Shown here piece by piece: positions 33,440-56,894 of a stretch of 64,000 nucleotides of DNA (its first letter is position 1; every line of letters starts with the position of its first letter). The notes beneath the pieces were generated by a model that searched no databases, had not been told where the DNA came from, and saw only the letters and a program-made list of their open reading frames with translations. The DNA comes from a virus: IMG/VR virus record IMGVR_UViG_3300030329_001359, positions 47,117 to 111,116 of that record; one strand, given 5' to 3'. The translations under genes were made by a program, and so were the position numbers.

Positions 33440-33442
33440 GGC

Positions 33443-34884: not shown

Positions 34885-34886
34885 TC

Positions 34887-36872: not shown

Positions 36873-37089
36873 TAAACCAATTTGGAAACCTTCTAAAGGT
36901 AAAGTATACCTAAAAGATGTTCCAGTAGGAAGTTTATTCAAAACATCAGGCATTAAAGGGATATTGCTAGATATATCAGCTTCTTCAGCTTCTGTTGTTA
37001 TAACTGAAAAATATGGGCCAGATAGTGAAGATTCATTTTATCTAGGGAAAAGATTGATAGCACCAACTACGGAGGTAGAAAAATTATGA
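36802..37089 (+). CDS. hypothetical protein
   Basis: TTG start after AAGGAG. LKDVPVGSLF motif. Confidence 0.6.
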   Translation: MKPETKQKRKLGQARKLAKAALIDKPIWKPSKGKVYLKDVPVGSLFKTSGIKGILLDISASSASVVITEKYGPDSEDSFYLGKRLIAPTTEVEKL

Positions 37090-40144: not shown

Positions 40145-41466
40145 CAATAAGAATACAACCTCACAGCGAAGAAGCTGAGAAAGCACTTCTTGGTTCTGTT
40201 TTAACAGGTGGAAGTGAAGTATTTGAAAAATGTAAGCACTGGATAAGACAATCTGATGCATTTTATAATGATTGCCATAAGAAAATATGGATTGCAATGC
40301 ACAGATTATATAGAGATAAAGATGGAATTGATTGTGTAACAGTTGTTGATAAATTCAAAAGGTTAAACCCAGATGAAAGTGATACAAGAGATATAACGTA
40401 TTACATATCAGGATTACCAGATGAATCACCATCTCCAGCTTTAGTAGAAAAGTATAGCAAGATTGTATGGGAAAAATATCTTAGAAGGTCTGTTAGTAAA
40501 AGCGCTATTAATTTAAATAGCACAGTTCTACAAGACGATAACCAATCAATGGAAGAAATAGTAGGTGAACATATTAGGTTATTGGAAGAGATAAAGAATA
40601 TACAACCTACAAAATTAAATGATATTGAAGAAATAGTAGAGAAAACTAGAGAATTGGTAAACTCAGGTGATAACATTATAAAGTTTGGTATTCCAGCATT
40701 GGATATACCAGCAGGCGGAATGACAAGAAAAGAAATAACTGTACTAGGAGGAAGACCTGGACATGGTAAAACAACATTAGTTGTTAACATTGTAAGGTCA
40801 TTGATAGAACAAGGGAATAAAGTAATAATATTTAATAGAGAAATGTCAAACCCTGAAATGATAAGAAAACTTGTAGTAATGGAAGGAAATAATCTTTCGT
40901 ATTCAAAAGTTAGAAAAGGCGATTTAAATGGAACAACGGATGAGTTCAATAAATCAATAGATAAGATTAAAGATAAGTATAAAGATAAATTACTTATGTT
41001 TGATGATGTCAGTACACTTGATGAAGCAATGCTTGAAATATCAAGACATAAACCGGATGTAATTATTGATGATTACATTCAACTAATTGCTATGCCGGAG
41101 AAACAAGAAAGAAGATTCCAGATAGAAAAGATAGTTCAAGACTATAAATGGATATGCAAGAAAGAAGATTGTTCAGCATTATTGGTCAGTCAATTAAATA
41201 GAGACATAGAAAAAAGATATGAACCTAGACCAAGACTATCAGATTATTCTGAAAGTGGTGTAATTGAGCAAACAGCAGAGTCTGCATTATTTGTATGGTA
41301 TGGATATGTATTCAATGATGAAGAATATAGTCCTTATCAATCAGAAATCATATCAGCTAAGACAAGATATGGTAAAGTAATGACAGAAGAAGTAGGATTT
41401 AATGGTGATAGATGTAGGTTCTATGAATCAAAAGAGCAAGCATTAGAAGACACACCTAAACAATAA
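40141..41466 (+). CDS. dnaB: DnaB-like replicative helicase
   Basis: PHSEEAEKALLG N-domain, Walker A GGRPGHGKT, IIDDYIQL, SQLNR and SGVIEQ motifs. Confidence 0.93.
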   Translation: MTIRIQPHSEEAEKALLGSVLTGGSEVFEKCKHWIRQSDAFYNDCHKKIWIAMHRLYRDKDGIDCVTVVDKFKRLNPDESDTRDITYYISGLPDESPSPALVEKYSKIVWEKYLRRSVSKSAINLNSTVLQDDNQSMEEIVGEHIRLLEEIKNIQPTKLNDIEEIVEKTRELVNSGDNIIKFGIPALDIPAGGMTRKEITVLGGRPGHGKTTLVVNIVRSLIEQGNKVIIFNREMSNPEMIRKLVVMEGNNLSYSKVRKGDLNGTTDEFNKSIDKIKDKYKDKLLMFDDVSTLDEAMLEISRHKPDVIIDDYIQLIAMPEKQERRFQIEKIVQDYKWICKKEDCSALLVSQLNRDIEKRYEPRPRLSDYSESGVIEQTAESALFVWYGYVFNDEEYSPYQSEIISAKTRYGKVMTEEVGFNGDRCRFYESKEQALEDTPKQ

Positions 41467-41473
41467 AGAGAAT

Positions 41474-41591
41474 GGGCAGATGCAAGGCTAATGTCGTTAC
41501 TGGTGGAGAGAAACAGTTAACTGTATTGCCATGGCTATACAAGGATACAGCGAAAGATTGCTGGGTGGGATTGTTTCAATAGTATCTGCCC
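41474..41591 (+). ncRNA. multibranch intergenic RNA element containing a near-palindrome
   Basis: GGGCAGATGC/GTATCTGCCC closing stem. Inner TTACTG/CAGTTAA, CAGC/GCTG and TGTATTGCCATGGCTATACA. Confidence 0.5.
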
Positions 41592-41615
41592 CTTCCACTA
41601 AAAAAAGGAGATAGT

Positions 41616-41804
41616 ATGAGTAAAACAAAAAAGAAAGATACACTTGGCATGGAGCCAGCTGTACATAGAGCAAACATAGAAGAAAGAATAGATGAATTGG
41701 ATAAAAGAATTGATGATCTTATAGTTGATTTTGGAGACATAATAGATGGTATGCAAAAAACACTAGATAAGATATGTGTTCGCATGGGCCTACCAAAAAA
41801 TTAA
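41616..41804 (+). CDS. small coiled-coil protein
   Basis: AAGGAG RBS. C-terminus KICVRMGL resembles KLETRMGI of 5062..5220. Confidence 0.65.
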   Translation: MSKTKKKDTLGMEPAVHRANIEERIDELDKRIDDLIVDFGDIIDGMQKTLDKICVRMGLPKN

Positions 41805-41805
41805 T

Positions 41806-42282
41806 ATGATTGCTGTTGGTATTGACCCTGGAAAATCTGGAGGTCTAGTTATAATTCATTCAAATAATAATGAGTGTTCTATGCATAAATGCCCAGAGAA
41901 TGCTAGTGGTATGTCAGATATTCTATTAAGAGCTAAAGATAGTGCTTACTCAGATAATGTACCAATAATGATATCAATAGAAAAAGTTCATGCGTTTCCA
42001 ACTGACGCTAGAAGTGCTGCGTTCAAGTTTGGAATGAACTATGGTATGTGGTTAGGTGTAATAGGGGCATTGAATATACCATTCATTGAAGTTGCTCCCA
42101 AGGTTTGGATGAAATCTTATGCCCCTTTACCTAAAATAAAACAAGAAAGAAAGAAAAAAATAAAAGAGATAGCAACTGATATATATTCAGATGTCTATAG
42201 TAATACAAATAAAATAACATATGCCGTTAGCGACGCTGCATTAATAGCTATATGGTGCTTAGAAAGGAGTAAAGATGACTAA
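41806..42282 (+). CDS. RuvC-like Holliday junction resolvase
   Basis: GIDPG, IEKV, AFKFG.NYG, P.VWMK and SDAALIA motifs. Confidence 0.85.
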   Translation: MIAVGIDPGKSGGLVIIHSNNNECSMHKCPENASGMSDILLRAKDSAYSDNVPIMISIEKVHAFPTDARSAAFKFGMNYGMWLGVIGALNIPFIEVAPKVWMKSYAPLPKIKQERKKKIKEIATDIYSDVYSNTNKITYAVSDAALIAIWCLERSKDD

Positions 42283-42466: not shown

Positions 42467-42498
42467 AAAGGGGTAGCTTGTATAGTGCCCCTTTTTTT
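42467..42498. terminator. bidirectional terminator at the convergence point
   Basis: AAAGGGGT..GCCCCTTTTTTTT between convergent operons. Confidence 0.8.
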
Positions 42499-45224
42499 TA
42501 TGCTACCTGATTAGCCTGCCTATTTTTTATGCTATCAAGTAAAGATAACATTTGTTTGTTGCGACCCCTACTTGTCCTAGGTGATTTAGATATACCTTCG
42601 AGAGCAAGCATTATATTCTCACCTTCTGTTCTTATGTCTTTTGATGCTTTCTTTTTCTTCTTAGCATATGAAGGAATTGGTATTGATTTACCAACTACAG
42701 GTAGTTTACGAGCTTGTTTAATCCAAGCAAGTTTACGTTCTTTTAATTCTCTTGATGGATATATGCCTGTCTGTAATGAAACAAGGTCACCAAATCCAGC
42801 ACCATTATACATTCTAGGCCCAACAATAAATAATTGTCTTGCTATTTCTGAATTAATAGTTCGAGCTACATCAAATACTTTTTCACTCTTTCTAGTACCC
42901 GAGTAATCATGGTAACCAGCTAAGTAACCTAATAACCCAGGGTCACCACGTTCAAAGTTTAAAAATAAATCATAGAAACCAAATACATTACCAAGTGTAA
43001 CCATGTCAGCAACAAAAGGACCACCTAATGTACCTATGACTGGACCTTTACCAAAAAATGCTTGTCTCTGTCTCTCTTTATCGCCAGAAGCCATGTCTAA
43101 GAACTGTTTAGCTCTTTCATATGTATCATTCTGTATGAGATTACCGAACTTACTATTTGTAGCTGTACTTAATACACCGTCAATAAATAACTGCATCATG
43201 CCCAATCTATACAATCTCCAGGCCCTTTCAGATTTCCAATCACCTGCTAATATATCTTCAGCTCCACGTTTAGCTATCTTTCTTTGGTAATTAAAAAAGT
43301 TAATACTATATGTAGCAAACTGACCAAGAACAGCACCTTTAGCCGTCCTCAATGCTTTAGGCTTAGCAAATGGAGAATACTCATAGTGTATCTCTTTTAC
43401 CATTTCAGCTGCAAACCTACCAGCTTCATTATTTATATGTGTTTCTACTTGCTTAGATATTGTATCACCATACTCTGTCTTAGTAAAAAATTCTGGATGT
43501 TGGTCTATAAACCTTTCAATATTCTCTCTCTCTGAGCTTAATTGTTTATGTCTTTTTGCAAATGCCACTCTAAATGTTAGATTACGATTGATTTTATTTT
43601 CAACCCATGACATAGGTTTACCAGCTTTCTGAGCAACTGTTTCCAAACCAGATAAAAACTTTTCGCCTGTAGTGTCTGTTTTCCATGTCATTACTTCTTG
43701 ACCATTAACTCTACTTACTTGAGTATCTGGAAATAATCCTGTAACACCAGCTAATTCTCTAGCTTCTTCAAAGAACACACCATGTCTTTCCATCTCATTC
43801 TTTAATACCGTATCCATTTCTCTTGTTTTTAAATACTGCTCAGCCTCATACCATCCTTTACCACCAAAGTAAACAAAGTTTTGCAATGACTGGGTTGCAT
43901 TTCTAAATGCTGAACGTATATTGAGACCTAGTTTAGATATAAATTCCCATGATGTTATTCCTCTAGCTAGAGACCTATATAAAGGACTCTGTATGTTATA
44001 TCCTAGCATGGTTGCATGAGTATCAGTTAAATAATCTATATAAACTTTTGCAGCATCAGCTGTCTGCTCATTGCTCATATCTCTAAGCTTTCTAACTCCA
44101 TCTATTAATGTAGCCGATGTATTTACAGTATAATTAAATCTAGTTACATCACGAATATAATTATCAAGAACACCAATAACATTTTTATTTCTACGGTCAG
44201 TAGGTAGAGCTGTTTTCTCTTTAAGATGACCACTAATAGGTACTCTATCAAGTACATTCTTTACCATAGAACTCACATATGTATTTAGTTGTTCCATGTT
44301 AACAGAACCAGAATCTTTAGTTTCATACACACTATCAGTAATAGCTTTCATTGTAGGGAATATATTAAGCAATGAAGTAGGGAAATAATTTTCAGAAGGC
44401 TTTAGATTATCATTCAATTCTTTCAGCTTATCTATAACATTTTTATATTCAGCAGCATTGTTCTGACTCTCAAGTACTCTTACATATTTAGACAATCCAT
44501 TTCTTAGACTATTAAATAACTGTGGTCTTATTACTTGCCACTCATCAACAACAGGCTTAAATATCTTATATTTATCTTGTAAGATAAGTTTAGGATTTCT
44601 TAATACTTCATCAGCCATCTCAAATACTTTGAATTGCTGTTCTTTAGCAAGGTTAGCTAAGTTTTCTTGGTAGTATTCTTCAGCTGCAACTTCTTTAGCT
44701 GGGCTGGTAGCAGATTCTTCTAGTAATTTAGTGTATTCATTATATCTACGCTGTAATTCTCTCCTAGCTTTTGACATATTAGGAGCTTTTATTCTTTCAG
44801 CGATAGCCATTTCTTTAGAGATATTACTTAAAGAGTCTGCAATCTTTATCATACTTGCATTGTATTTATCTTTCTCACCTCTAAAGTAATTATGATTAAT
44901 AACAAATTGGTCAAATGTTTTCTTACCTACTGGATTTGTTTTAAGAAATTCTTCAGGTAAATAAAACAACTCAGCAAGCTTACCAGGTGTTCTCTGTTTT
45001 ATCTTTGCTTGAAATTTATCTATCCTTTTACTAAGCCTATCTAAACTCTTTTCACTAGGAGCATCTCCATAATCAAAATCTTTACCAGTAACAGCTCGAT
45101 ACATCTTCTTATATTCACCGCCACTATTAGATGTTAATCTTACTGTTAAAGGGTCGTCAAACCATTTATCTATTGTTTTATCTATTTTTTCTTGTAATTC
45201 TTTTGGTGTGCAAGCCATTAGCAA
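42498..45224 (-). CDS. large internal virion (ejection) protein
   Basis: 908 aa, helical. Last gene of the ejection cluster, with LGQFATYSINFFNYQ region typical of ejection-protein C-termini. Confidence 0.6.
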   Translation of the reverse strand: MLMACTPKELQEKIDKTIDKWFDDPLTVRLTSNSGGEYKKMYRAVTGKDFDYGDAPSEKSLDRLSKRIDKFQAKIKQRTPGKLAELFYLPEEFLKTNPVGKKTFDQFVINHNYFRGEKDKYNASMIKIADSLSNISKEMAIAERIKAPNMSKARRELQRRYNEYTKLLEESATSPAKEVAAEEYYQENLANLAKEQQFKVFEMADEVLRNPKLILQDKYKIFKPVVDEWQVIRPQLFNSLRNGLSKYVRVLESQNNAAEYKNVIDKLKELNDNLKPSENYFPTSLLNIFPTMKAITDSVYETKDSGSVNMEQLNTYVSSMVKNVLDRVPISGHLKEKTALPTDRRNKNVIGVLDNYIRDVTRFNYTVNTSATLIDGVRKLRDMSNEQTADAAKVYIDYLTDTHATMLGYNIQSPLYRSLARGITSWEFISKLGLNIRSAFRNATQSLQNFVYFGGKGWYEAEQYLKTREMDTVLKNEMERHGVFFEEARELAGVTGLFPDTQVSRVNGQEVMTWKTDTTGEKFLSGLETVAQKAGKPMSWVENKINRNLTFRVAFAKRHKQLSSERENIERFIDQHPEFFTKTEYGDTISKQVETHINNEAGRFAAEMVKEIHYEYSPFAKPKALRTAKGAVLGQFATYSINFFNYQRKIAKRGAEDILAGDWKSERAWRLYRLGMMQLFIDGVLSTATNSKFGNLIQNDTYERAKQFLDMASGDKERQRQAFFGKGPVIGTLGGPFVADMVTLGNVFGFYDLFLNFERGDPGLLGYLAGYHDYSGTRKSEKVFDVARTINSEIARQLFIVGPRMYNGAGFGDLVSLQTGIYPSRELKERKLAWIKQARKLPVVGKSIPIPSYAKKKKKASKDIRTEGENIMLALEGISKSPRTSRGRNKQMLSLLDSIKNRQANQVA

Positions 45225-48200
45225 ATCCCATTTTCGTTACCATGCCTAGATGATGTTCTTTTCATAGCCTTTCTATTTGATTGTAAGGATTCAGGGCCTC
45301 CGTATATATCACCAGCAATAGACTCTTTCCTTCCTGTAAACAAATTCCTACCATCATGTGGTTGACCATAAAACAACTTTACTTGATTCATCTTATGTCT
45401 AAAATACGAATTTATACCATGTACTGGTACAATTTTACCACTCATTGTAAGAGCATTTCTAGGTATTCTTCTCATTTCAACAAGAGATGATAGATTAGCT
45501 ATAAGGTCAAGACCTCCGCCTGGAAGTTTATATGATATATAATCAAGAGATAAATCTCCTGTTAGACCTAATACATTAAGAACATTTTCATTTACTTTCT
45601 CAAATTGTTTCCATTCTCTTAAATCAGCAGGTAAAGATTCATTTATAGATAGTCTTTGAGCAATCGTGTCTACTTTTTTAACTAAATCAGATTCATATTC
45701 TATTAAAGGAGAACCACCTTCTGAATCTTTAAATGATAAAGCATTATAATTTTTAAGGTCTATTTGCTCAAAATTATACTTAGGGTCTATCTCACCTCTA
45801 AGCCATGCTAATTGATTGCTTATAGGTTTAGCAATCTCTATCATTAAATGGTCAGATAAAGTTGTATTTAATCTTTCAAAGAACCTAAGTCCCAATGTAA
45901 TAAATTTAGTTTGACTATTAACTTTATTAAAACCAGGCATCATTGTACCATTATGATATGTAACAGTATTAGTAGAAATTTTAGGTGTCATGAGTGAAAG
46001 TACAAATTGCTTACCAAGACCAGGGTGACTTCCTTCCCAGTCATAATATAATTTTTCTAACTTTATTATTGCTTCATTCATTACAGAATTAGCATCCATG
46101 TCATCTGTTAATCTATTATTAAATAACTCCCACCATTTCTTACCATATTCACCTTTGAATTGTCTAATATCTTGTTCCCATTTCATAGCTGTAGATTTTT
46201 CTACAGTTGCAGGATTAAGACCTACACCAGTAAGCCTTGAAAGGACATTGTATGTAGCAAGTATTTGAGCATAATCATCTGAGTTAACACCTCTTATCTT
46301 TAATCCAAGTTGTTTATTTCTTGTATCCCATATACTGCTAGTTATTTGTGGTTTTATTTTTTCTATAGCTTTAAATCTTTCACTTCTACTTCTTATTTTT
46401 GAGAAATCATGAGTTTTACCATATTTATCTGTCCATGTTCCTCCTGACGCTAATGTACGATAAATCTGTCTTAGTATTCTAGTTCTTACAGCCTTTTGAA
46501 CACTTTTACTAGCCATTACCTCTTTAGTTAGGTCTGATTTTAAATCTCTAAGCCTAGCATGGCTCTCTCCAAAACTACTAGCCATCTCATGGTTACCGTT
46601 CCTTTCCATCCTTCTTTGAGACCTTCGATATCTACGCATTCTATAGTCTATGCTGTTTATAGCATTTAACTTATCAAAATCAGAACTGAATCCTTCAACT
46701 ATCTTTCTTACGGCTCCGTCAACATCTCTAGTATCTCCTAGTAAAAAGTCATATATAAATCCATCTGTTTTATATTGAACATCAGGGTTGACCTTCTTCA
46801 TTGACATTCTATCCATGCCTGCAAGGTTAGCAATCATTCTATCAGCTGCTATCATTCCAGTATTTTGACCAGCAGCATCTACACCAGAAACTGCATCATC
46901 AAACCTAGTGTCTCTTAATCTAAATGGGTCTACAAAACGACCTTGTTCTTTAAAAATAGAATCAATATCATCACCACTCCATTTATTTTTAGAAAGACCT
47001 CTTCCATTTCTCAATCCCCAATAAACATATCTATTTAAATTGCTCATTATATAAGAATATCTTTGAGTATAATCTATGAGAGTATCGTAATCAACTTTCT
47101 TTTGTTCACCACTTTCAAATACACTTGTACGAAGACCTAAGAATCTTTTATAGGGCGTCAAAGCTAAACCAACCATATCTTGTTCAAGCTTATCAAGCCT
47201 AACTCCATTATCTACCCAAGATTTAGTTTTTTGGTCATACGTTTGCTTAGAGAATATACCAGGGTATGTTTCACCATCTCCAAATAATAACTTACTCTCC
47301 CACTGCTTGTCGAATGTACTTTTATCATAACCTCTTCCACCAGCATCAACAATTCTTTGTATATCTGTAGCTAATAAATATTCTACTTCTTTTATTTTAT
47401 CAGCATCTCCTAATACTATTCTTCCTCTATCTAGTTTTATATTAAATCCTTCAACATCAGTATAATTTGCTCCACGATATGACTTTAAAAATTGTATTGT
47501 ATTTTTGGCTTTAACAACAATACCTCTATACAAAGAACTATTTGCTTCGCTAAAATTATAATTCATTAAAGCTTTTCCATTAAATGGATTTAAACCATGT
47601 ATTGATGTTCTTTGTTGTGTGCCTTTTACAGAAGGAACTTCACCAGACTTACTATCCCAAAATCTTAATATATCAGAAGGTGTATCCCACCAGTAATTTA
47701 TCTTGTCTATATCAAAATCCATCTCAAGTCTAAACCATCCATCAGCATGATTTATTCTAGCTGCATTACCAGTTAAATCACCAAATCCTTTTAACCCAAC
47801 AATAACTTTATCAGATGAACGAGTTGTAGGTGTTCTATGAGCAACCAGTGCTATTTCATATCTTTTCCCTTCTATGCCATCGTTAAAAGCTTCAACAGAC
47901 CTATAAAGGTCATTGAGTGTAACAGCTTGTTTACCATCTAATAAAGATTGAATTTCTTTTGATAATTCATTAGCTCTGACTATCTTATCTTTTGCTGTAT
48001 AATTATGCTCAATAAATCTTATTCTTTCTGGAGCAACTAACTTACCTTTATTTGTAGCATCTATTTCTATCTGTCCATATGTCCATACATCTCTTGATAC
48101 AATATCAGCAGGATTACCTGACCTTTCTCCATTAAGCCATTCAGTTTTAAATAATGTATTTCTTAAATGACCTTTTGTTCCAAAATCTGTAAAATCAGGA

Positions 48201-51200
48201 ACCACAACACTTTGACTGCCGTATTCATTACGAGGTGTTAAGAGATTTCTTTTGTCAATTAATTGACTTTTGATTTGATTCCTTACAGTTCTTTTGAATG
48301 GTATATATGTTGGGTCACCTCCATGACTTATCCATCTTTCAAACATCGCCATTTGGTCAGTATCGACATCTAATTCATCAAAGTTTATTTTAAGCTTTGT
48401 TGCTATTTCTGATGTTTTACCATCTCCAAATATTGTATTAGCCTCTGTTATAAAATCTCTTACTCCTCTGACTAATTGCCATTCGTAAAAAGAATTATTT
48501 AATTTAGGTGTATTAAAATCATTAGCTACTTGCAAAGGTAGAGTTGATGATTTCTGAGGCTTTACAGCACTTGCTATTGAGAAAGTATTTATAGGTAGTG
48601 TAATACGATTATTAGATAAATCACTTTCTGTTCGTATTAAGTCAGACATAGAATTAAAATCGCTCATGTATATTACTTTTTCAGAAGCACCGTCAGGAGA
48701 TTTTTCTCCTGTTATGTCAGTACCAGACATCTTATTAGCAGAATCCATTATAACCATGTCAATCTTATGTCTTTCTAAGTATTTATCCCATGTTCTATCT
48801 GTTATCCAAGCTGTTTTATCTAAGAATACAGCATTGCCATTTGATGATGATGCTCCAACAGCTTTAAGATGTTCTACTCCGCTACCATGCAATCCAAATA
48901 AGAAATTAATAGCATTCAATCTTTCTCTTGTTACAATATTAACACTATCAAATCTGCTAACATCACCTAATCCACCTGGCATACTAAGATTTTCAGTATT
49001 GAAATCATTTAATGACAATAAACCTTTTCCTTCACTATTATATAATTCAGATTCAGCCTTTATCTGTTTACTTAATGATTGAAATAAAGAAGATATCATA
49101 GGAGGAGCTTCACCATCTATAGGGCTTTCATCTCCTAGTATATGGGCCTTCCAACCTTTCTTAGATAGTTTCTTTAATTCACTTTTAACAGATTGTTTAT
49201 CGCCAACTACATCTTCACCAAGAAATTTAAAAAATCTATTATTCTTACTATCAAGTCTTTCGAGAAGGTCAATAGCGTCATTAACATATTCTTCTGTAAT
49301 CTCTTTGGACGACCTATTAGAAAGTAGTTTCATATATCTCAGTTGCTTATTAGCAAATAACTCAGCATTATTCCAATTATCATTACTAACAGATTCCCAA
49401 TATTCTCTGCCTTGAGCTTTATCACCAAAGATATTATTAAGCATCATTGTCATATCTTCAGTTACTCTTTGATGACTTGATTCTCCTCTTGTATACTCAT
49501 ATAGTCCAGTTTTTTCATTAAATGTAACTGAAACTTTTCTCCAATCTTTATATGTTGATATAGCATCAGGGCTCATGTAGTCACCAAGTTCTTTTATTCT
49601 AGCATCTACAATATTAATAAACTCATTAGTTACTCTATCTATCGCTATATACTTATTTACACCAAGTCCGTAAGGTATACCAATACCATCTTTCATATTA
49701 CTTACAAAAGCAACAGCATAAGGTTGTTTACCAAGAGACTGACCAAGGTCGTTAAGAAGTTGGGCAGTATCACCTCCTCCTTTAGCAGATATAGCTGGTT
49801 GATTAGCTATCTTAGCAAAGAATTCAGTTTTTATAGTATTGTCAACGCTATCAAGAGCTATATCGTATTCTCTACCAGCTCTTTTATATTTTGTATCTAT
49901 AAGAGTAAACTCACCTAGAAGGTCTTTAACTATATTATATAAATCATTCTTTTGAAATGTTTCTGTTGAATACTTAGGTTGAGCATTACCAAATGCCTTA
50001 ATTTTATTTACAGTAACATTATTCTTTAATTGAGAATAGACCATAAGAGTTTCATGTACAAACTTTTCATGCATATCTCTATACTGAACAAGTCCCCATT
50101 TTTCTTGAGAGATACTATCCCCTTTGTAAGGTATACTAGCTCCTTTTTTTCTCATGTAATCATAAAAATTAAATGGATTCTTCATTACATCAGTATTTCC
50201 ACCAATCGAAATTCCTAATGTAGTACCAGGCTCTGCTTTTAAATCTATATTATATCTGGATATATACTTATTAAGACCTATTGTAAGCTGAGTATCTACT
50301 GGATATCTACTTTGACTATCAAGCCTGTCTTTTTCCCACATTATTTTTAAATCTCTATCACTATTAAATACTTGAAACATCATATTTAAAGTTTCTTCAA
50401 CATCTTTTATTCTTTCTATCATGTTTTTATCTGCATTGTCAAACTTGAATTGATTATCAGTTCTGTCAAAGAGTTTCCCTGCAACCAATGTCTTCAAAGC
50501 AATGGAAGCTGAAGAAGGATTTGTTAAATATAAATTTTGTATATTTTTCATTAATGAATGGACGCTTCTATGTTCAGCTGTTTGTTTATTAAAACCAGAC
50601 TTTCCAACTCTTATCCAGTCAGCTGTAGCATCAAATAATTCTTGATGAGACAATCTTGATGATGATTCTTTTAATAGGTCTATTGTCATTTTAAGTTCAG
50701 CTAGATACTGAGCTGATATGTGAGTCTGACCTTGAGGTGTCATATCAAGATTTATAAAACCACCTTTTTTACCTGACTCTTTTATAAGAGGATATAAATG
50801 ATTATTTAAACCTTCATGCATGTCAGCAATAAATTCACCTATAGACATATTAGATTGCTCAGCTGCTACAGATAATTGTTTTATATAATCCATATCTTTA
50901 GACATTCCAGAAATTTGATGCCATAATGTAGGGTCGCTCTTTAATAATTTAGCCATAGCAACAACATCACCAACAGCTTCAACATCTTTCTTATTATCTC
51001 TAAACCAATCAACCATTTTAATAAGATTGTTATCTATGACACCTTTTATATTTAGCATTGTCATTTGAGGCGATACGATTTTTTGGTCAATAAGATATTT
51101 AACAACACGCCTATCAACAGAATCTAATGGAATAGCTTGACCTTCAGGTGATGACTTTTGAAAACTAGAAATACTTCTATCTAATGTATAGTCAGCCATT

Positions 51201-54199
51201 TGATTTATTAAATCATTCTTAGCTTCTCCACCAGGCATTGTAAAGATAGGCATTGTTTTATCAACAAGCTTCATTAAATCTTGGACATCTTTAATAGTAA
51301 CATCTGTCTTTATTACTTTTTCTCTACCTGTATTTCTACTTAGGTCATTCCTTAATACAGTTAACATCTTGTTAATAAAGTTATATTCTCTTGGGTAATC
51401 TTTTCCTTCAACAAGTCTACCTGCTTTTGTTAATTGAACACTATCTGCTAATTCACCTAATACATTAAAAACCTTAGGCATTAACTTTTGTATCTTAGCA
51501 TAGTCAGTAGATTCAAATATATCATTTTTATTATTAGACTCAGGATGAAGTTCTTTTATAGCTCTCCAATGTTGCCTTACAGATTTTCTATTTAATACAA
51601 GATTTGTCCATCCAGATATCATCTCATCACCCATTCTCTGCCATCTTTCAACTGGTATTGTATCAGGAGATGCTTCAAGTATCATTTCAGTAAGAGATCT
51701 ATCATGCTTATCCATTACTCCAGGCTCTACTAACTTACCTTCTTTATACTTACCAAATATAGCATCAACCATTTCTTGATTAAGTCTAATAGGCTCGCCT
51801 TGATGTTTATAATACGGACTAACAGTTCTCATTAAGAATGATTCTGGATGTATCGTATCGATATGTCGTGGAGGAAGTATAATAGTGTTATCTGAAAAGT
51901 CTAATGGTTGTAATATTATTCTTTCATTTAAATCAAAAGCATCTTTAGAGTATTTTTCTAAATCTTTATTATTATTAAGTATTTTATGTATCTCATTATA
52001 TATATCAATAACAGCATCTTTAGACATCTCTCTATATCTAATCGCTTGGTTCTCTGCCGAACCTAATACAATATCAAGTATATCTGTAGATGTCTCTACA
52101 CCTCTTCTACCAGTAGGTTTTAATTCTTCTAATGCGTCAAATTCAGTTTTATTTAAATCTTCTTTAACTCTATTTAATTGTTCTTTAGTTAATTCAAATG
52201 CCTCTTTAACCTCATATTCAGTATCTCTAGGCTTAAGGTTATTCATTTCAACTATAGCTGCAAAAGTAGTATATATCTCATCAGAAAATGTATCTTCTGT
52301 AGGTACTTCTTTTGTAACCTCTTTACCATCTTCAATAACTTTTACTTTTTCTTTAGCTGCTTCTTTTGTTCTTGTTTCTCTATTTCCTTCAGCATCTTCG
52401 CTAACATATTTTTCTACAACAAGACCATTTTTCTCAGCTATTTCTAAAAGCTTTTGCATATCTCTACTTGATTCATCTACTCCTGTAAAACCGCGTCTAA
52501 TAGCAGTATGCTCATTAAATAATGCTCTATAAAGAGCAGCGTCTACAGCTGTATTAGTTTGATTAAGCCATGTATCTACTTGCTCAAGTTCTTTGGTATA
52601 TGTGTAGGGCCTATCATCAAATAAATGTTCTACTTTACCAGTTTTTCTATTGACATACTCAAAAGGCTTACCTTTCTTTGTCATAAACATTCCAAGAGCA
52701 ACATTGAATATTATATCTTCTAATGGATAACCGTCCTGAGACATCATTTCTATACCAGACCAATTAAATGCTAAAGCTCCAGTTAGCATTCTAGCTGAAC
52801 TACCAGCTACATCGCCAGGAATTTCTTTTAAGAACTTAGGGTACCAACTCTTATATAATGCTGTTTCAATATCAATAAGTGAATCTTTAACAGTTTGAGC
52901 TCCTTTAGATGTTTTCACTAAATCATCTATGTCTGTTTTACTATGAATAGGAATCTTATAAGAGCTTCCTTTAACGCCTTCAACTGTTTTTGTTAAGTCT
53001 CTTAATGATTCTTTTTTCATGCTAAACATACGCTTAGCTTCTTCACCAATAAATAATCTATCTGCTTCATTCTTTACATCATAAGACCTATATCTACGTC
53101 TTGTTTCTAATGTTTTAGTAATTCTATTCCAAGCGGGCCTTATAATACCATAATCGCTACCACCAGGGATAAATCTTATTACACCAAGAGCTGAACCTAA
53201 TACAAATGAATGACTTAATGTTCCTCCTAAACTAAAATCTACTTCATCATTAGCAAGTGAATTCATAAAATTTAAAGGTAATTCAACAGCTGAGAATAAT
53301 ATAGCTTCTTCTAATGCGTGAGCAGCTAAGTTACCAAGTTTTCCATTGCCCATATGAGCAGCTAATACTTGATGCATTTGAGTCATAGGAAATTTAAATG
53401 TACCACCAGCGTCATCTAAAACAGTACCTATCTTCTTAGCAAGGTCGTCACCTAATGTACCAGCAATTCTAGCTGCGTCATCAGCTGAATACCCAGCCTT
53501 TTCAAATGTATCTCTTAAAATCTTTGGAGTATTCTCATTAAAATTCTTAGCAAAGTTCATTCTATTTTCAGCTGTCCTAGCAAACATAGCTTCACCTTGT
53601 CTTGTACCTAAGCCTAATAAAGTATCTTTTCTATCTTGAACAAGGCTAGATAAGAAATCATCAACACCTTGCTTACCACCTTCTATTTCACCATTTCTAA
53701 CTTTCTTATTTACCCATCCCATGAATTCTTTATCACCACGCATCATCTTAATAGCATCATCAGAATATGACTGTGCAAATTTCTTAGTACCAGCTCTTGC
53801 AAATGTCCTAACACCAGCATTTAAAACACCTCTAGCGGCTGCCATTGGACCTATGAAACCAGCAGCTCCACCAATACCAGTAGTTACTCTTTCTGCAAAA
53901 GTCTTAGGTTCCATTGCTTCAGTAAAAGCTTCACCACCTATTGCCCTACCTGCTAAGCCAGGAATACCAAGTCCTGTTATATCAAAAGCTGTCCATAGAC
54001 CTTTACCGACAGCTGTCAAAACATTTGTTTGTTCATCTTCAATTTCTTGGGACATCCAAGCAGGCATTTCTTTACCAGCTGCTGACTCCCATAGAGAGCC
54101 GCCTGTTGTAGTTTTTAAATTAGGTGAGGGTCTTTCAGTAGCTAGCTTTGTTCTTTCTTCAAGCTGCCTTTTGAATTCTAATGTAAGATTGTCTGCCAT
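45218..54199 (-). CDS. giant internal virion protein containing a two-barrel (DPBB) RNA polymerase, crAss-like virion RNAP type
   Basis: HRTP (R~2122) and EMDFDIDK (D2161-D2165, nt 47705-47719), 39 residues apart. Upstream Lys motifs HLK, LDK, DSANK. Gly/Ala-rich amphipathic N-terminus. Confidence 0.78.
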   Translation of the reverse strand: MADNLTLEFKRQLEERTKLATERPSPNLKTTTGGSLWESAAGKEMPAWMSQEIEDEQTNVLTAVGKGLWTAFDITGLGIPGLAGRAIGGEAFTEAMEPKTFAERVTTGIGGAAGFIGPMAAARGVLNAGVRTFARAGTKKFAQSYSDDAIKMMRGDKEFMGWVNKKVRNGEIEGGKQGVDDFLSSLVQDRKDTLLGLGTRQGEAMFARTAENRMNFAKNFNENTPKILRDTFEKAGYSADDAARIAGTLGDDLAKKIGTVLDDAGGTFKFPMTQMHQVLAAHMGNGKLGNLAAHALEEAILFSAVELPLNFMNSLANDEVDFSLGGTLSHSFVLGSALGVIRFIPGGSDYGIIRPAWNRITKTLETRRRYRSYDVKNEADRLFIGEEAKRMFSMKKESLRDLTKTVEGVKGSSYKIPIHSKTDIDDLVKTSKGAQTVKDSLIDIETALYKSWYPKFLKEIPGDVAGSSARMLTGALAFNWSGIEMMSQDGYPLEDIIFNVALGMFMTKKGKPFEYVNRKTGKVEHLFDDRPYTYTKELEQVDTWLNQTNTAVDAALYRALFNEHTAIRRGFTGVDESSRDMQKLLEIAEKNGLVVEKYVSEDAEGNRETRTKEAAKEKVKVIEDGKEVTKEVPTEDTFSDEIYTTFAAIVEMNNLKPRDTEYEVKEAFELTKEQLNRVKEDLNKTEFDALEELKPTGRRGVETSTDILDIVLGSAENQAIRYREMSKDAVIDIYNEIHKILNNNKDLEKYSKDAFDLNERIILQPLDFSDNTIILPPRHIDTIHPESFLMRTVSPYYKHQGEPIRLNQEMVDAIFGKYKEGKLVEPGVMDKHDRSLTEMILEASPDTIPVERWQRMGDEMISGWTNLVLNRKSVRQHWRAIKELHPESNNKNDIFESTDYAKIQKLMPKVFNVLGELADSVQLTKAGRLVEGKDYPREYNFINKMLTVLRNDLSRNTGREKVIKTDVTIKDVQDLMKLVDKTMPIFTMPGGEAKNDLINQMADYTLDRSISSFQKSSPEGQAIPLDSVDRRVVKYLIDQKIVSPQMTMLNIKGVIDNNLIKMVDWFRDNKKDVEAVGDVVAMAKLLKSDPTLWHQISGMSKDMDYIKQLSVAAEQSNMSIGEFIADMHEGLNNHLYPLIKESGKKGGFINLDMTPQGQTHISAQYLAELKMTIDLLKESSSRLSHQELFDATADWIRVGKSGFNKQTAEHRSVHSLMKNIQNLYLTNPSSASIALKTLVAGKLFDRTDNQFKFDNADKNMIERIKDVEETLNMMFQVFNSDRDLKIMWEKDRLDSQSRYPVDTQLTIGLNKYISRYNIDLKAEPGTTLGISIGGNTDVMKNPFNFYDYMRKKGASIPYKGDSISQEKWGLVQYRDMHEKFVHETLMVYSQLKNNVTVNKIKAFGNAQPKYSTETFQKNDLYNIVKDLLGEFTLIDTKYKRAGREYDIALDSVDNTIKTEFFAKIANQPAISAKGGGDTAQLLNDLGQSLGKQPYAVAFVSNMKDGIGIPYGLGVNKYIAIDRVTNEFINIVDARIKELGDYMSPDAISTYKDWRKVSVTFNEKTGLYEYTRGESSHQRVTEDMTMMLNNIFGDKAQGREYWESVSNDNWNNAELFANKQLRYMKLLSNRSSKEITEEYVNDAIDLLERLDSKNNRFFKFLGEDVVGDKQSVKSELKKLSKKGWKAHILGDESPIDGEAPPMISSLFQSLSKQIKAESELYNSEGKGLLSLNDFNTENLSMPGGLGDVSRFDSVNIVTRERLNAINFLFGLHGSGVEHLKAVGASSSNGNAVFLDKTAWITDRTWDKYLERHKIDMVIMDSANKMSGTDITGEKSPDGASEKVIYMSDFNSMSDLIRTESDLSNNRITLPINTFSIASAVKPQKSSTLPLQVANDFNTPKLNNSFYEWQLVRGVRDFITEANTIFGDGKTSEIATKLKINFDELDVDTDQMAMFERWISHGGDPTYIPFKRTVRNQIKSQLIDKRNLLTPRNEYGSQSVVVPDFTDFGTKGHLRNTLFKTEWLNGERSGNPADIVSRDVWTYGQIEIDATNKGKLVAPERIRFIEHNYTAKDKIVRANELSKEIQSLLDGKQAVTLNDLYRSVEAFNDGIEGKRYEIALVAHRTPTTRSSDKVIVGLKGFGDLTGNAARINHADGWFRLEMDFDIDKINYWWDTPSDILRFWDSKSGEVPSVKGTQQRTSIHGLNPFNGKALMNYNFSEANSSLYRGIVVKAKNTIQFLKSYRGANYTDVEGFNIKLDRGRIVLGDADKIKEVEYLLATDIQRIVDAGGRGYDKSTFDKQWESKLLFGDGETYPGIFSKQTYDQKTKSWVDNGVRLDKLEQDMVGLALTPYKRFLGLRTSVFESGEQKKVDYDTLIDYTQRYSYIMSNLNRYVYWGLRNGRGLSKNKWSGDDIDSIFKEQGRFVDPFRLRDTRFDDAVSGVDAAGQNTGMIAADRMIANLAGMDRMSMKKVNPDVQYKTDGFIYDFLLGDTRDVDGAVRKIVEGFSSDFDKLNAINSIDYRMRRYRRSQRRMERNGNHEMASSFGESHARLRDLKSDLTKEVMASKSVQKAVRTRILRQIYRTLASGGTWTDKYGKTHDFSKIRSRSERFKAIEKIKPQITSSIWDTRNKQLGLKIRGVNSDDYAQILATYNVLSRLTGVGLNPATVEKSTAMKWEQDIRQFKGEYGKKWWELFNNRLTDDMDANSVMNEAIIKLEKLYYDWEGSHPGLGKQFVLSLMTPKISTNTVTYHNGTMMPGFNKVNSQTKFITLGLRFFERLNTTLSDHLMIEIAKPISNQLAWLRGEIDPKYNFEQIDLKNYNALSFKDSEGGSPLIEYESDLVKKVDTIAQRLSINESLPADLREWKQFEKVNENVLNVLGLTGDLSLDYISYKLPGGGLDLIANLSSLVEMRRIPRNALTMSGKIVPVHGINSYFRHKMNQVKLFYGQPHDGRNLFTGRKESIAGDIYGGPESLQSNRKAMKRTSSRHGNENGIC

Positions 54200-55231
54200 C
54201 TAAAACAAACCGCCAACTCCAGTACCTTCAAGACCAGGATATTTTTCGGAAATTTGCTCAAACTTAGCAGCTTCAACAGCTCTTCTTTTCTTTGTAAATT
54301 CAGTAATTGATTTATTTAAATCATCCATTTCAGCTCTAAATAAAGATTCAATTTCAGGAGCTCTAACCAAAAGATTTTCTTCATTATCTGTTAATGTTAT
54401 ACCATGTCTGCTTTTTTGATTAATATATCTAACATTTAAATCAAGAGTATTTAATGATTCTTGCTTTTGCTTTATAGTGTTAGATAATTCATCTATATTT
54501 TCTATAGATGATGATATATCTTCTTCAGGTGACATAATTAATCCATCTATACCTGGAGATTCAGGAGGGTCAATACCAGCAAATGCATCTAATTCTTCTG
54601 AAACTGAGTCAGGTTCAAATATACCAATATCTCTTGTTATATCAATATCGCCTGTAGTTCCATATTCAGTCATCTCAGCAAGTAAATCATTTCTATTTTG
54701 CATTACTTTTTGAACTGATGATAAAGCTTTTAATCCTTTCTCACTATCAGCTCCAAGAGGTGTTAATGAATATAAAGCTTTTGTCATCCTTTTATCATCT
54801 TTAGATATTTCTTCACCTTCAAATGATTTTTGAACAGTAGAAGCTATATCTTCAGCAATAGATAGAACACCTTTTGTATTCTGACCTTCATAATAACCAT
54901 ACAAAGCAGAAGCTACTCTATTCGCTTGACTTCTATTTAGATTATATTGGTCTTCTAACTCATCTATAACATTATCAAGGTCTTCACCATCGCCAATATA
55001 TGATTGATAAACAGCTCCAATTCCTGTTGTTGTTACAAAATCATCAGCATGAGATGTCATTAATTGTTCATTTACTGTATTTAAGACTTGTAACCTTTGA
55101 CCAAATTCAGCTGACCTAGCTTGGTCTATCGACATTTTTGTTAAGACCCACTCTCTTTCAGCTCGTCTTTTATCTGCAGCATGAGCTCTTAGCTCTCTAA
55201 GAGTTCTTAATACTTCTAATTCTCTAGCCAT
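54200..55231 (-). CDS. internal virion protein
   Basis: 343 aa, acidic and helical, directly upstream of the giant gene. Confidence 0.6.
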   Translation of the reverse strand: MARELEVLRTLRELRAHAADKRRAEREWVLTKMSIDQARSAEFGQRLQVLNTVNEQLMTSHADDFVTTTGIGAVYQSYIGDGEDLDNVIDELEDQYNLNRSQANRVASALYGYYEGQNTKGVLSIAEDIASTVQKSFEGEEISKDDKRMTKALYSLTPLGADSEKGLKALSSVQKVMQNRNDLLAEMTEYGTTGDIDITRDIGIFEPDSVSEELDAFAGIDPPESPGIDGLIMSPEEDISSSIENIDELSNTIKQKQESLNTLDLNVRYINQKSRHGITLTDNEENLLVRAPEIESLFRAEMDDLNKSITEFTKKRRAVEAAKFEQISEKYPGLEGTGVGGLF

Positions 55232-55233
55232 TT

Positions 55234-55398
55234 TTATCTTGGCCCATATGGTGGTGTTGGTTCATAATCATAGTCGGTTGAATCCGATTTTACTTTACTA
55301 TTAATAGATTTAGTTTTCTTTTTTCCATAAGAAGTGCAATCTTTTTTACTTTTATATCCTAATTTTTTCCAATTTTTGCATTTTGTTTTACTTGGCAT
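55234..55398 (-). CDS. 54-aa Lys-rich peptide with one Cys pair (not in ORF track)
   Basis: GGAGG RBS. MPSKTKCKNWKKLGYKSKKDCTSYGKKK... Confidence 0.7.
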   Translation of the reverse strand: MPSKTKCKNWKKLGYKSKKDCTSYGKKKTKSINSKVKSDSTDYDYEPTPPYGPR

Positions 55399-55409
55399 AT
55401 TATACCTCC

Positions 55410-56153
55410 TTAAAATATCCCCAAAAATTTCGATTCTGATTTTGCTAAATGAAGTTCTCGCTCAGCCCTTAATCTTCTTTCATCAGCATCTAACCTTCCT
55501 GTTTCCGATTCAAACCATCCTTCAATATCGCCCATCTTAGCTCCAATTTGTGCCCATAAATCATCTTTAGCTGATAAATATGCATTTGAAATATTCTTCC
55601 AAGTAGTAGACATCTTGGTCTCAGCTGTTCCAGATGTAGCCAATCCGCTTTGCTGAATCATTGTTTCATACCCTTCTCGTAGTTCATCTCTTGATTTACC
55701 AGTCGCAGTTTGAACTTTATTCATACCTATATCAGCTTCAGCGCTAACTGCTTTTTTCTTAGCTTCATATCCTTCTTTTAATGAACCCCTAGATTGATTA
55801 ATAACATCTAATGAATCACGTATTAAATCTAACTGAACGCCAGCAGCTTTTTTATCCTGCTCATGAGCACCCCAACTGCCAACAAAACTAACAGCAGCCA
55901 TTCCAAGAGTAAGAGGGTCTACATATTCTCTGTTTCCTGTATATGGATTTATAGTACCTGAACCTCTTTCTTTTACCATATCTTCACCTTTTTTACCAAA
56001 GGCGTCTATTGTACTAGCTTCAACAGGATTGACATGAGATGGTTCACCATCGACAAGTCTCATTTCTGTATCACCAGTCATAGCAGCTCTCTGCTGAGCA
56101 TTTGAACCTAATGAAAATGAAGATAAATGATTTTTTGCTAATGTATTTATCAT
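55410..56153 (-). CDS. ejection/pilot protein with GSGTINPxTG pro-domain-like motif
   Basis: GDT...HVNP.E...GSGTINPYTGNREY followed by VDPLTLGMAAVSFVGSW and a SGLATSG helical region. Confidence 0.6.
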   Translation of the reverse strand: MINTLAKNHLSSFSLGSNAQQRAAMTGDTEMRLVDGEPSHVNPVEASTIDAFGKKGEDMVKERGSGTINPYTGNREYVDPLTLGMAAVSFVGSWGAHEQDKKAAGVQLDLIRDSLDVINQSRGSLKEGYEAKKKAVSAEADIGMNKVQTATGKSRDELREGYETMIQQSGLATSGTAETKMSTTWKNISNAYLSAKDDLWAQIGAKMGDIEGWFESETGRLDADERRLRAERELHLAKSESKFLGIF

Positions 56154-56833: not shown

Positions 56834-56860
56834 TACATTACCTTAGAGTTATACATTGAT

Positions 56861-56889
56861 AATTTAATATTTATCATAGTATTATTCAA
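56861..56889 (-). promoter_or_regulatory. sigma70-like promoter upstream of ejection cluster
   Basis: TTGAAT-N17-TAAATT on the minus strand. Confidence 0.45.
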
Positions 56890-56894
56890 AACCT

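What the first reader, a model, noticed from the sequence alone, without database searches (positions are those of the whole stretch)
45218..54199. Virion-packaged two-barrel RNA polymerase (DFDID) hidden in a 2993-aa ejection protein of a ~56-kb, non-crAss-looking podophage
Seen: ...IALVAHRTPTT-(~35 aa)-RLEMDFDIDKINY..., with DFDID at nt 47705-47719 (residues 2161-2165) and R of RTP 39 residues upstream. Lys-containing motifs EHLK (K~1779), FLDK (K~1795) and DSANK (K~1823) lie about 350 aa earlier. Known: cellular beta' has NRxP about 35 residues before NADFDGD, and the crAss-like phage phi14:2 virion RNAP gp66 is a single-chain two-barrel enzyme with a DFDID catalytic loop, related to QDE-1-type RNAi polymerases. 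Inference: this is an ejected RNAP that transcribes the early arm. The context differs from Crassvirales: unit genome ~56 kb rather than ~100 kb, SU10/DUF5309-like capsid, strong AAGGAG Shine-Dalgarno sites (atypical of Bacteroidota phages), and no DNA polymerase or primase. It may mark an undescribed phage lineage using a crAss-type virion RNAP.
Basis: partly seen in the sequence, partly recalled or inferred. Interest (0 to 1): 0.9.

Follow-up and report, generated by a model that had tools for sequence, protein, structure and literature searches.

The report
Hidden RNA polymerase in marine phage giant protein
A 2993-residue protein of an uncultured ~56-kb marine phage contains a complete cell-type ("two-barrel") RNA polymerase core like the one crAss-like phages inject into their hosts, so this injected-polymerase strategy also occurs in an unrelated, undescribed phage lineage.

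Summary
Window 45218-54199(-) is one 2993-aa ORF with DFDID at residues 2161-2165 and R2122-x-P2124 39 residues upstream. The motif alone is expected by chance about 1.3 times per protein. The support comes from three results. The three Asp, R-x-P, K1779, K1795 and K1823 are invariant in 24 aligned homologues down to 33% identity. The Asp triad and R-x-P recur in every matched protein that covers the site. A confident AlphaFold model of residues 1650-2400 (pLDDT 80) matches phi14:2 gp66, QDE-1, RDR2, the P23-45/P74 phage polymerases and beta' subunits.

Virion delivery is inferred from three things. The gene sits at the far end of the late operon, as in phi14:2. It lies in a six-gene block with 2 Cys in 4851 aa (P = 5e-9). 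The polymerase's only Cys is its last residue and the next protein's only Cys is residue 3, as in the phi14:2 and crAss001 polymerase cargo proteins.

The phage is not crAss-like by tblastn of terL, portal and capsid. The 111-kb record is two related ~56-kb phages joined, each with one polymerase giant. The other phage's giant has a DWDGD loop and lies outside the window. This is a new sequence family of a known kind. The scan has noted similar hidden polymerases on other DNA.

The parts
45218..54199 (-). Giant ORF, 2993 aa (P0001), carrying the polymerase core. It has exactly one Cys, which is the last residue.
47000..49252 (-). Residues 1650-2400 (P0002), the folded two-barrel RNAP core. AF2 pLDDT 80.2, pTM 0.81.
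48560..49162 (-). Approximate first (beta-like) barrel region, aa ~1680-1880, holding invariant K1779 (48863-48865), K1795 (48815-48817) and K1823 (48731-48733).
   Evidence: Invariant columns. All single-chain RNAP alignments start at model residue 26-33. The barrel boundary is approximate and the barrel was not folded on its own.
47681..48223 (-). Second (beta'-like) double-psi beta-barrel, aa ~1993-2173.
   Evidence: Isolated DPBB domains (7dww, 7dbo, Cdc48-N) align to model residues 342-525 at Z 6-7, rmsd 2.2-2.4.
47828..47836 (-). R2122-T-P2124, counterpart of the beta' NRxP and gp66 YRIP motifs.
47705..47719 (-). DFDID, aa 2161-2165, the predicted Mg2+-binding catalytic loop.
45221..45223 (-). 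Codon of C2993, the only Cys of the giant protein.
42498..45218 (-). Downstream partner protein, ~906 aa from the ATG at 45216-45218, which overlaps the giant's stop codon. Its single Cys is residue 3 (MAC...). It is the positional counterpart of phi14:2 g065 and crAss001 gp49.
54200..57299 (-). Four upstream late genes (343, 247, 226 and 134 aa) with no Cys at all. With the giant and its partner they form a Cys-suppressed block, the candidate ejection operon.
28309..42282 (+). Opposite-strand replication and recombination arm: Cas4-like nuclease, DUF932, Dam methylase, exonuclease, DnaB, resolvase. It is the presumed template of the injected polymerase (inferred, not shown).

Best explanation
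P0001 is a cargo protein of an uncultured ~56-kb marine podophage. Residues ~1680-2400 form a single-chain two-barrel DNA-dependent RNA polymerase. The beta-like barrel carries invariant K1779, K1795 and K1823. The beta'-like barrel carries R2122-x-P and the Mg2+-binding loop D2161-F-D-I-D2165. Made late with the structural genes, the protein is packed into the capsid. On infection it is threaded, at least partly unfolded, through the tail and periplasm, together with or just ahead of the 906-aa protein encoded next to it. It then refolds in the cytoplasm and transcribes the opposite-strand early arm independently of the host polymerase, as gp66 does in phi14:2. Shown here: the fold, the conservation of catalytic residues, the gene position and the cysteine pattern. 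Inferred: catalysis, packaging, ejection and choice of template.
For: 1. Fold. The AF2 model of aa 1650-2400 has pLDDT 80.2 and pTM 0.81. The Foldseek top hit in the PDB is 6VR4, phi14:2 gp66 (E 4.6e-8), followed by QDE-1 (~1e-6), RDR2 and Rpb1/RpoA'. An independent aligner gives QDE-1 Z 15.5 (404 aa), RDR2 Z 11.0, P74 gp62 Z 10.9, gp66 Z 9.8 (523 aa) and P23-45 gp96 Z 8.6, all spanning model residues ~30-740.
2. Catalytic residues are invariant across the family.
3. gp66 has YRIP, then 39 residues from R to the first D, then DFDIDK. This is the same spacing and the same hexapeptide as P0001. All three gp66 Asp are essential for activity (10.1101/2020.03.07.982082).
4. Gene order is terL, portal, capsid, tail, cargo, polymerase, partner, then strand switch, as in phi14:2 g094...g067-g066-g065.
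5. Cysteine. The six-gene block 42498-57299 has 2 Cys in 4851 aa, against 21 in 4088 aa of the other late proteins (binomial P 5e-9). Cys suppression is a published mark of ejection-operon proteins, including the N4-type virion RNAP (PMC11445570).
6. Terminal Cys. 49 of 49 full-length family members have exactly one Cys, within the last 3 residues in 47. In all 13 related loci that hold a complete giant, the next protein has one Cys, at residue 3-6. The mass-spectrometry-verified virion proteins phi14:2 g067/g066/g065 and crAss001 gp47/gp50/gp49 show the same tail-to-head terminal Cys pattern.
7. The syntenic giant of the sister phage shares no BLAST similarity. It nevertheless folds as a two-barrel RNAP with invariant R-x-P and DWDGD, so this slot is kept for a polymerase.
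Against: No enzymatic, proteomic or transcript evidence exists for this phage. No sequence-level similarity to gp66, gp50 or any PDB chain was found, even with a family profile, so homology rests on a predicted fold plus short motifs. Residue-by-residue superposition was not available. That D2161/2163/2165 overlay the gp66 and QDE-1 aspartates is therefore inferred from secondary-structure order and motif spacing. The bridge helix and trigger loop were not assigned. No polymerase-specific promoter motif was found in the early arm. Function of the other ~2250 residues is unknown: Pfam and PHROGs gave nothing, and the atlas gave only weak leads.
Confidence: 0.72

Rival explanations
1. The protein is an active two-barrel polymerase whose main job is priming DNA replication, or making RNA from RNA as QDE-1 does, rather than early transcription.
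For: No DNA polymerase or primase was found among the replication-arm genes scanned, so primers must come from somewhere. The best structural Z-score is to QDE-1, which has both RNA- and DNA-templated activity (PMC9508822 abstract).
Against: The host primase and DNA polymerase can serve a phage that brings only DnaB. The only characterised phage enzymes of this fold (gp66, P23-45 gp96) transcribe early or pre-early genes. A late-operon position and Cys suppression fit a delivered enzyme, which is needed before any replication starts.
Confidence: 0.1
2. The protein is an active polymerase that is not packaged. It acts in the cell as a middle or late (non-virion) RNAP, like P23-45 gp64 or P74 gp62.
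For: P74 gp62, a non-virion RNAP, is among the best structural matches (Z 10.9). Packaging was not shown here.
Against: The protein is 2993 aa, against ~600 aa for gp62. The gene lies inside the structural operon on the late strand. It has 1 Cys in 2993 residues, and the terminal-Cys pattern is shared with proteins found in virions by mass spectrometry. A polymerase made only late could not start the infection programme.
Confidence: 0.08
3. The protein is a structural or ejection (channel-forming or polyvalent) protein that keeps a relic polymerase fold without catalysis.
For: About 75% of the protein has no assigned function. The atlas search of the N-terminal 700 aa gave weak leads to large-polyvalent-protein domains and P22 gp16 (scores 0.85-0.90, leads only).
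Against: A relic would not keep the three Asp, R-x-P and three Lys invariant over a family that has diverged to ~25-30% identity. The independent sister family keeps them as well.
Confidence: 0.05

Closest known systems
Virion RNA polymerase gp66 of Cellulophaga phage phi14:2 (PDB 6VR4) and its Crassvirales orthologues such as crAss001 gp50
   Same: It is a giant single chain with both barrels and is the top Foldseek hit. It has the same DFDIDK loop with a non-Gly fourth residue, and R-x-P exactly 39 residues upstream. It takes the same place at the far end of the late operon, followed by a large partner protein. Cys occurs only at the termini, facing a terminal Cys of the neighbouring cargo protein.
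   Different: No sequence similarity is detectable by tblastn, phmmer, profile search or hhalign. This protein is ~800 aa longer, with ~770 more residues ahead of the core. It has no N-terminal Cys and no upstream g067-like partner with a C-terminal Cys. The phage is ~56 kb with an SU10-type capsid and no own DNA polymerase. By contrast, Crassvirales genomes are ~100 kb with PolA and primase, as crAss001 shows.
Neurospora QDE-1 and plant RDR2 (eukaryotic single-chain two-barrel RNA polymerases)
   Same: QDE-1 gives the best structural score (Z 15.5 over 404 residues) and RDR2 gives Z 11. Both barrels and the connector lie in one chain.
   Different: These are cellular RNA-silencing enzymes of ~1000-1400 aa, sharing 10-13% identity. 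They have no virion context.
Thermus phage P23-45 gp96 (tape-measure-fused virion RNAP) and gp64 / P74 gp62 (non-virion RNAP)
   Same: They are single-chain two-barrel phage polymerases (Z 8.6 and 10.9). gp96 is also delivered from the virion as part of a giant protein (PMC10770324).
   Different: gp96 is fused to a siphophage tape measure. Here the carrier is a capsid or ejection-type cargo protein of a podophage-like genome.
N4-like (Schitoviridae) virion RNAP gp50 / DEV gp71
   Same: It is a ~3400-aa ejected polymerase inside a Cys-suppressed ejection operon (PMC11445570). The strategy and the cysteine signature are the same.
   Different: It is a T7-like single-subunit polymerase fold, not a two-barrel one. 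It has no terminal Cys pair.
Sister-phage giant (G000 34440-43007, 2855 aa, outside the window)
   Same: It has the same slot, the same size class, a single C-terminal Cys, a partner with an N-terminal Cys, and a two-barrel core.
   Different: It has a canonical DWDGD loop and no BLAST similarity. hhalign gives only E 0.027, although the alignment is collinear over 484 columns and pairs the motifs. Family members carry extra domains: an HExxH motif, SAP, Rho_N and RecD/Pif1-type helicase.

Membership tests
Single-chain two-barrel RNA polymerases (QDE-1 / gp66 / P23-45 type) | Two double-psi beta-barrels plus a connector in one polypeptide | tested here: met
   Whole-core alignments to QDE-1, RDR2, gp66, gp62 and gp96 span model residues ~30-740. 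Barrel B is also matched by isolated DPBB domains at residues 342-525. Barrel A was not folded on its own.
Single-chain two-barrel RNA polymerases (QDE-1 / gp66 / P23-45 type) | Invariant DxDxD metal-binding loop at the end of the beta'-like barrel | tested here: met
   D2161, D2163 and D2165 are invariant in 24 sequences. The triad is present in every hit that covers the site. It lies between helix 502-508 and strand 517-521 of the model.
Single-chain two-barrel RNA polymerases (QDE-1 / gp66 / P23-45 type) | Conserved R-x-P ~35-40 residues upstream of the loop | tested here: met
   R2122 and P2124 are invariant. The spacing of 39 equals that in gp66.
Single-chain two-barrel RNA polymerases (QDE-1 / gp66 / P23-45 type) | Conserved basic residues of the beta-like barrel facing the active site | tested here: inconclusive
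   K1779, K1795 and K1823 are invariant, and K1823 pairs with a conserved Lys of the sister family in hhalign. Their position relative to the Asp loop could not be measured because no coordinates or residue-level superposition were available.
Single-chain two-barrel RNA polymerases (QDE-1 / gp66 / P23-45 type) | Bridge helix and trigger loop | tested here: inconclusive
   Long helices follow the loop (model 559-591, 617-636, 688-708) and carry invariant residues. They were not assigned.
Single-chain two-barrel RNA polymerases (QDE-1 / gp66 / P23-45 type) | Mg2+- and template-dependent RNA synthesis | not testable with these tools
   This needs a biochemical assay.
Crassvirales virion RNAP family (gp66 / gp50 orthologues) | Detectable sequence homology to gp66 / gp50 | tested here: not met
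   There was no hit by tblastn against 50,697 phage records, phmmer or profile search against the PDB including 6VR4, hhalign or local phmmer/hmmsearch (bit scores of 5 or less).
Crassvirales virion RNAP family (gp66 / gp50 orthologues) | DFDxD loop with a non-glycine fourth residue | tested here: met
   The loop is DFDID here. Across the family it reads D-[FYH]-D-x-D with x non-Gly in all but one hit. gp66 has DFDID and gp50 has DFDVD.
Crassvirales virion RNAP family (gp66 / gp50 orthologues) | Presence in the virion | not testable with these tools
   Indirect evidence only: late-operon position, Cys suppression and the terminal-Cys pattern.
Order Crassvirales (the phage itself) | terL, portal and capsid proteins related to Crassvirales | tested here: not met
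   The best terL hits are ~25% identical non-crAss podophages, with no crAss among 210 records by organism name. The capsid protein has no tblastn hit and carries Pfam SU10_MCP. The portal has two partial non-crAss hits. No profile-based phylogeny was made.
Order Crassvirales (the phage itself) | ~100-kb genome with its own DNA polymerase and primase | tested here: not met
   The unit genome is ~56 kb. Neither enzyme was found among the replication-arm ORFs scanned. The smallest ORFs were not scanned.
N4-like virion RNAP (T7-type single-subunit) | T7-like polymerase domain | tested here: inconclusive
   Pfam gave no hit at E of 1 or less over the whole protein, and the conserved core is a two-barrel fold. 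Residues 1-1650 and 2400-2993 were not folded.

The most novel reading that the evidence does not exclude
The single C-terminal Cys of the polymerase giant and the single N-terminal Cys of the next protein form an intermolecular disulfide (or shared metal site) in the virion. This would chain the cargo proteins tail-to-head so that they leave the capsid as one ordered thread and are released by reduction in the cytoplasm. The same device would operate in Crassvirales (g067-g066-g065; gp47-gp50-gp49). It would mark an ancient injected-polymerase module shared by crAss-like phages and at least two families of ~56-kb marine phages.
Probability: 0.3. Interest if true: 0.8.

Novelty: new member of a known kind. 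Interest (0 to 1): 0.62.

Why it matters
Injected two-barrel RNA polymerases have been shown by experiment only in crAss-like phages and in Thermus phage P23-45. The DFDxD giant is treated as a crAss hallmark. Here the same enzyme type, down to the DFDIDK loop, the R-x-P spacing and the terminal-cysteine layout of the cargo proteins, sits in a phage half the size. That phage has a different capsid lineage, no DNA polymerase of its own, and genes that use Shine-Dalgarno sites. This separates the polymerase-cargo module from the crAss chassis. It gives two divergent polymerase families in two otherwise related phages for comparison. It also gives a simple sequence signature, a Cys-free giant with one terminal Cys beside a partner with one terminal Cys, for finding such modules in viral dark matter.

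Tried and rejected
- Pfam and PHROGs on the whole protein gave nothing relevant.
- tblastn of the giant against 50,697 phage records gave no match.
- phmmer and a family profile against all PDB sequences gave no match.
- hhalign of the family profile against gp66 gave no alignment.
- Local phmmer/hmmsearch against phi14:2 g065-g067 and crAss001 gp45-gp50 gave bit scores of 5 or less, which is noise.
- BLASTP between the two giants, and between their partners, gave nothing below E 0.4.
- A search for a repeated promoter-like motif in the early arm gave only chance pairs and Shine-Dalgarno contexts. The inverted-repeat scan at the strand switch found only a TA-rich palindromic tract at 28038-28085. 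I did not evaluate the short hairpins noted by another reader.
- There are no tRNA genes in the window. No Kyte-Doolittle window of 19 aa exceeds 1.4, and there is no HExxH in P0001.
- The atlas search of the N-terminal 700 aa gave only weak leads. A first atlas call failed because the protein was too long.
- I rejected 'one phage with two polymerases', because terL, portal, capsid and DnaB are all duplicated collinearly at a ~56-58 kb offset.
- I rejected a PolD-like DNA polymerase as the closest relative, because no PolD chain appears among the listed matches. This is an absence, not an exclusion.
Sample origin, independent contigs and expression therefore could not be examined directly.
Full report
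**1. Observation**

Window 45218-54199 on the minus strand is one open frame of 2993 codons. DFDID is at residues 2161-2165 (nt 47705-47719). HRTPTT is at 2121-2126, with R2122 39 residues before D2161. EHLK, FLDK and DSANK end in K1779, K1795 and K1823.

A DxDxD pattern is expected about 1.3 times by chance in this protein. A second, non-conserved one (DVDTD at 1944) is indeed present. The motif by itself proves nothing.

**2. Conservation**

A word-indexed search of 5.8 billion proteins with residues 1650-2400 found 31 clusters, nearly all 2900-3170 aa and unnamed by their sources. An exhaustive phmmer search of 1.84 billion representatives found 65 hits, 22 of them below E 1e-30.

In an alignment of 24 members down to 33% identity, the invariant columns include K1779, K1795, K1823, R2122, P2124, D2161, D2163, D2165 and K2166-x-N-Y-W-W-D-T-P. 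Every hit that covers the site keeps R-x-P, then ~35-40 residues, then D-[FYH]-D-x-D. This includes hits as weak as E 1e-4. The fourth loop residue is non-Gly in all but one of them.

**3. Fold**

AlphaFold2 on residues 1650-2400 with this alignment gave pLDDT 80.2 and pTM 0.81.

- Foldseek against the PDB ranks phi14:2 gp66 (6VR4) first at E 4.6e-8. QDE-1 follows at about 1e-6, then RDR2 and the largest subunits of archaeal and eukaryotic RNAPs.
- An aligner that does not depend on Foldseek gives QDE-1 Z 15.5 (404 residues), maize RDR2 Z 11.0, P74 gp62 Z 10.9, gp66 Z 9.8 (523 residues), P23-45 gp96 Z 8.6 and beta'-type subunits Z 7.5-9. The unrelated background lies near Z 5-6.
- All single-chain polymerase alignments run from model residue ~30 to ~700-747, so they cover both barrels.
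- Isolated double-psi barrels (Cdc48-N, designed DPBBs) align to residues 342-525 at rmsd 2.2-2.4.
- The order of secondary-structure elements around the motif is: strand ending in R-x-P, strand, strand, short helix, Asp loop, strand. From my own knowledge of the E. coli beta' sequence, this is the order in beta' from NRAP to NADFDGD.

**4. Direct comparison with gp66**

I fetched phi14:2 g066 from its GenBank record. It reads YRIP, then 39 residues from R to the first D, then DFDIDK. This is the same spacing and the same hexapeptide as here. The three Asp of gp66 are each essential, and the enzyme is rifampicin-resistant and transcribes early genes (10.1101/2020.03.07.982082).

Beyond these motifs there is no detectable sequence similarity. 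The protein works like gp66 but is not a sequence-level member of the crAss family.

**5. Is it delivered from the virion?**

This was not shown. Three lines of evidence support it.

(a) Position. On the late strand the order is terL (24786-26354), portal (20750-22990), SU10-type capsid (18206-19795) and tail fibre. Around the circle come a 928-aa protein, four small proteins, the giant and a ~906-aa partner, followed by the strand switch. phi14:2 has the same order, ending g067-g066-g065, all found in virions by mass spectrometry.

(b) Cysteine suppression. The six genes from 42498 to 57299 encode 4851 residues with 2 Cys. Eight other late proteins have 21 Cys in 4088 residues, giving a binomial P of 5e-9. 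The early arm has 1.5% Cys. Suppression of Cys in the ejection operon, including the virion RNAP, is documented for N4-like phages and is ascribed to passage through the periplasm (PMC11445570).

(c) Terminal Cys.
- The giant's only Cys is its last residue.
- 49 of 49 full-length family members have exactly one Cys, within the last three residues in 47.
- In all 13 related IMG/VR loci that hold a complete giant, the next gene encodes a ~900-940-aa protein whose only Cys is at residue 3-6.
- phi14:2 shows the same layout: g067 has one Cys (its last residue), g066 has Cys only at 3 and 2179 of 2180, and g065 has one Cys at 3.
- crAss001 shows it too: gp47 has one Cys at 2339 of 2341, gp50 has Cys at 5, 1334 and 2404 of 2412, and gp49 has one Cys at 5. 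This holds although gp47 lies on the other strand.

I found no mention of this pattern for the cargo proteins in the two crAss papers I searched. A disulfide or metal bridge that chains the cargo proteins is a hypothesis, not a result.

**6. The record and the sister phage**

The window is the last 64 kb of a 111,116-bp IMG/VR record. Self-comparison shows that terL, portal, capsid, DnaB and other genes each occur twice, collinearly, at 66-94% nucleotide identity and a ~56-58 kb offset. An identical 85-bp stretch lies at positions 1-85 and 57715-57799.

The identical giants also occur on contigs no longer than 56.7 kb (sister-phage giant) and 51.1 kb (a close variant of P0001). I read the record as two related phages joined, A at 1-57714 and B from 57715 to the end. 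The tail-fibre ORF at window 8614-13242 is then a chimera across the junction.

Window 1-10598 belongs to phage A, and the finding belongs to phage B. This contradicts an earlier unchecked note of 'one phage, two polymerases'.

Phage A's syntenic giant (2855 aa, outside the window) has no BLAST similarity to P0001. It does have invariant R-x-P and D-W-D-G-D. Its core folds with pLDDT 82.8 and matches QDE-1 (E 5e-9), gp66 (E 1.5e-7) and Thermus beta' (E 5e-6). hhalign of the two families gives only E 0.027, but over 484 collinear columns that pair the motifs. Two related phages thus keep very divergent polymerases in the same slot.

**7. What phage is it?**

- terL is at best 25% identical to terminases of non-crAss podophages and Mu-like phages.
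- The capsid protein has no tblastn match and the portal has two partial ones.
- The replication arm encodes a Cas4-like nuclease, DUF932, a Dam methylase, an exonuclease, DnaB and a resolvase. No DNA polymerase or primase was found among the ORFs scanned.
- Shine-Dalgarno cores precede 26 of 66 crude gene calls, against a 3% background.
- Sources include Tara Oceans. G+C content is ~33%. The host is unknown.
- In the BFVD library the closest predicted structures are unnamed UniProt entries (best TM 0.82, 27% identity). Crass-like 'cr' phage proteins appear near E 1e-8.

**8. Verdict**

- This is a new sequence family of a known kind, the virion-type single-chain two-barrel RNA polymerase, in a non-crAss, uncultured marine phage lineage.
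- My confidence that it is a catalytically competent two-barrel polymerase is about 0.9.
- My confidence that it is packaged, ejected and transcribes the early arm is about 0.7.
- The scan has recorded similar hidden polymerases in giant proteins on other DNA. I used those notes as leads only.

Noticed in passing
whole window; junction at window 10599-10683 (record 57715-57799): The 111-kb record is two related ~56-kb phage genomes joined through an 85-bp identical stretch. Every core gene occurs twice, collinearly, at 66-94% nucleotide identity. Window 1-10598 belongs to phage A and the rest to phage B.
   Followed up: yes
window 8614-13242 (-): The 1542-aa tail-fibre ORF spans the A/B junction. 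As assembled, it is probably a chimera of the two phages' fibres.
   Followed up: partly
L018:3780-12347 (-) = record 34440-43007, outside the window: The sister phage's syntenic 2855-aa giant has no BLAST similarity to P0001. It carries invariant R-x-P and DWDGD and folds as a two-barrel RNAP (pLDDT 82.8; QDE-1 E 5e-9, gp66 E 1.5e-7). Its family (57 clusters) includes members fused to SAP, Rho_N, RecD/Pif1-type helicase and 2OG-Fe(II) oxygenase domains. The family also shows a conserved HExxH motif upstream of the core.
   Followed up: yes
window 45221-45223 and 45210-45212; L003-L017; L019-L022: The tail-to-head terminal cysteines recur widely. The giant's only Cys is C-terminal (49 of 49 members of this family, 44 of 45 of the sister family have exactly one Cys). 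The next protein's only Cys is at residue 3-6 (13 of 13 loci). The same layout occurs in phi14:2 g067/g066/g065 and crAss001 gp47/gp50/gp49.
   Followed up: yes
window 42498-57299 (-): This six-gene block has 2 Cys in 4851 residues, against 0.5% Cys in the other late proteins and 1.5% in early proteins. It is a candidate ejection operon by the criterion published for N4-like phages.
   Followed up: yes
window 28038-28085: A ~48-nt TA-rich palindromic tract lies at the divergent strand switch between the late and early arms. It could be an origin or a promoter region.
   Followed up: no
BFVD entries A0A516L9L2, A0A516M3R5 and others: Unnamed UniProt viral proteins are much closer structural relatives (TM 0.82 and 0.74) than any crAss protein. 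Relatives are therefore already deposited, but without a name in the tables at hand.
   Followed up: no
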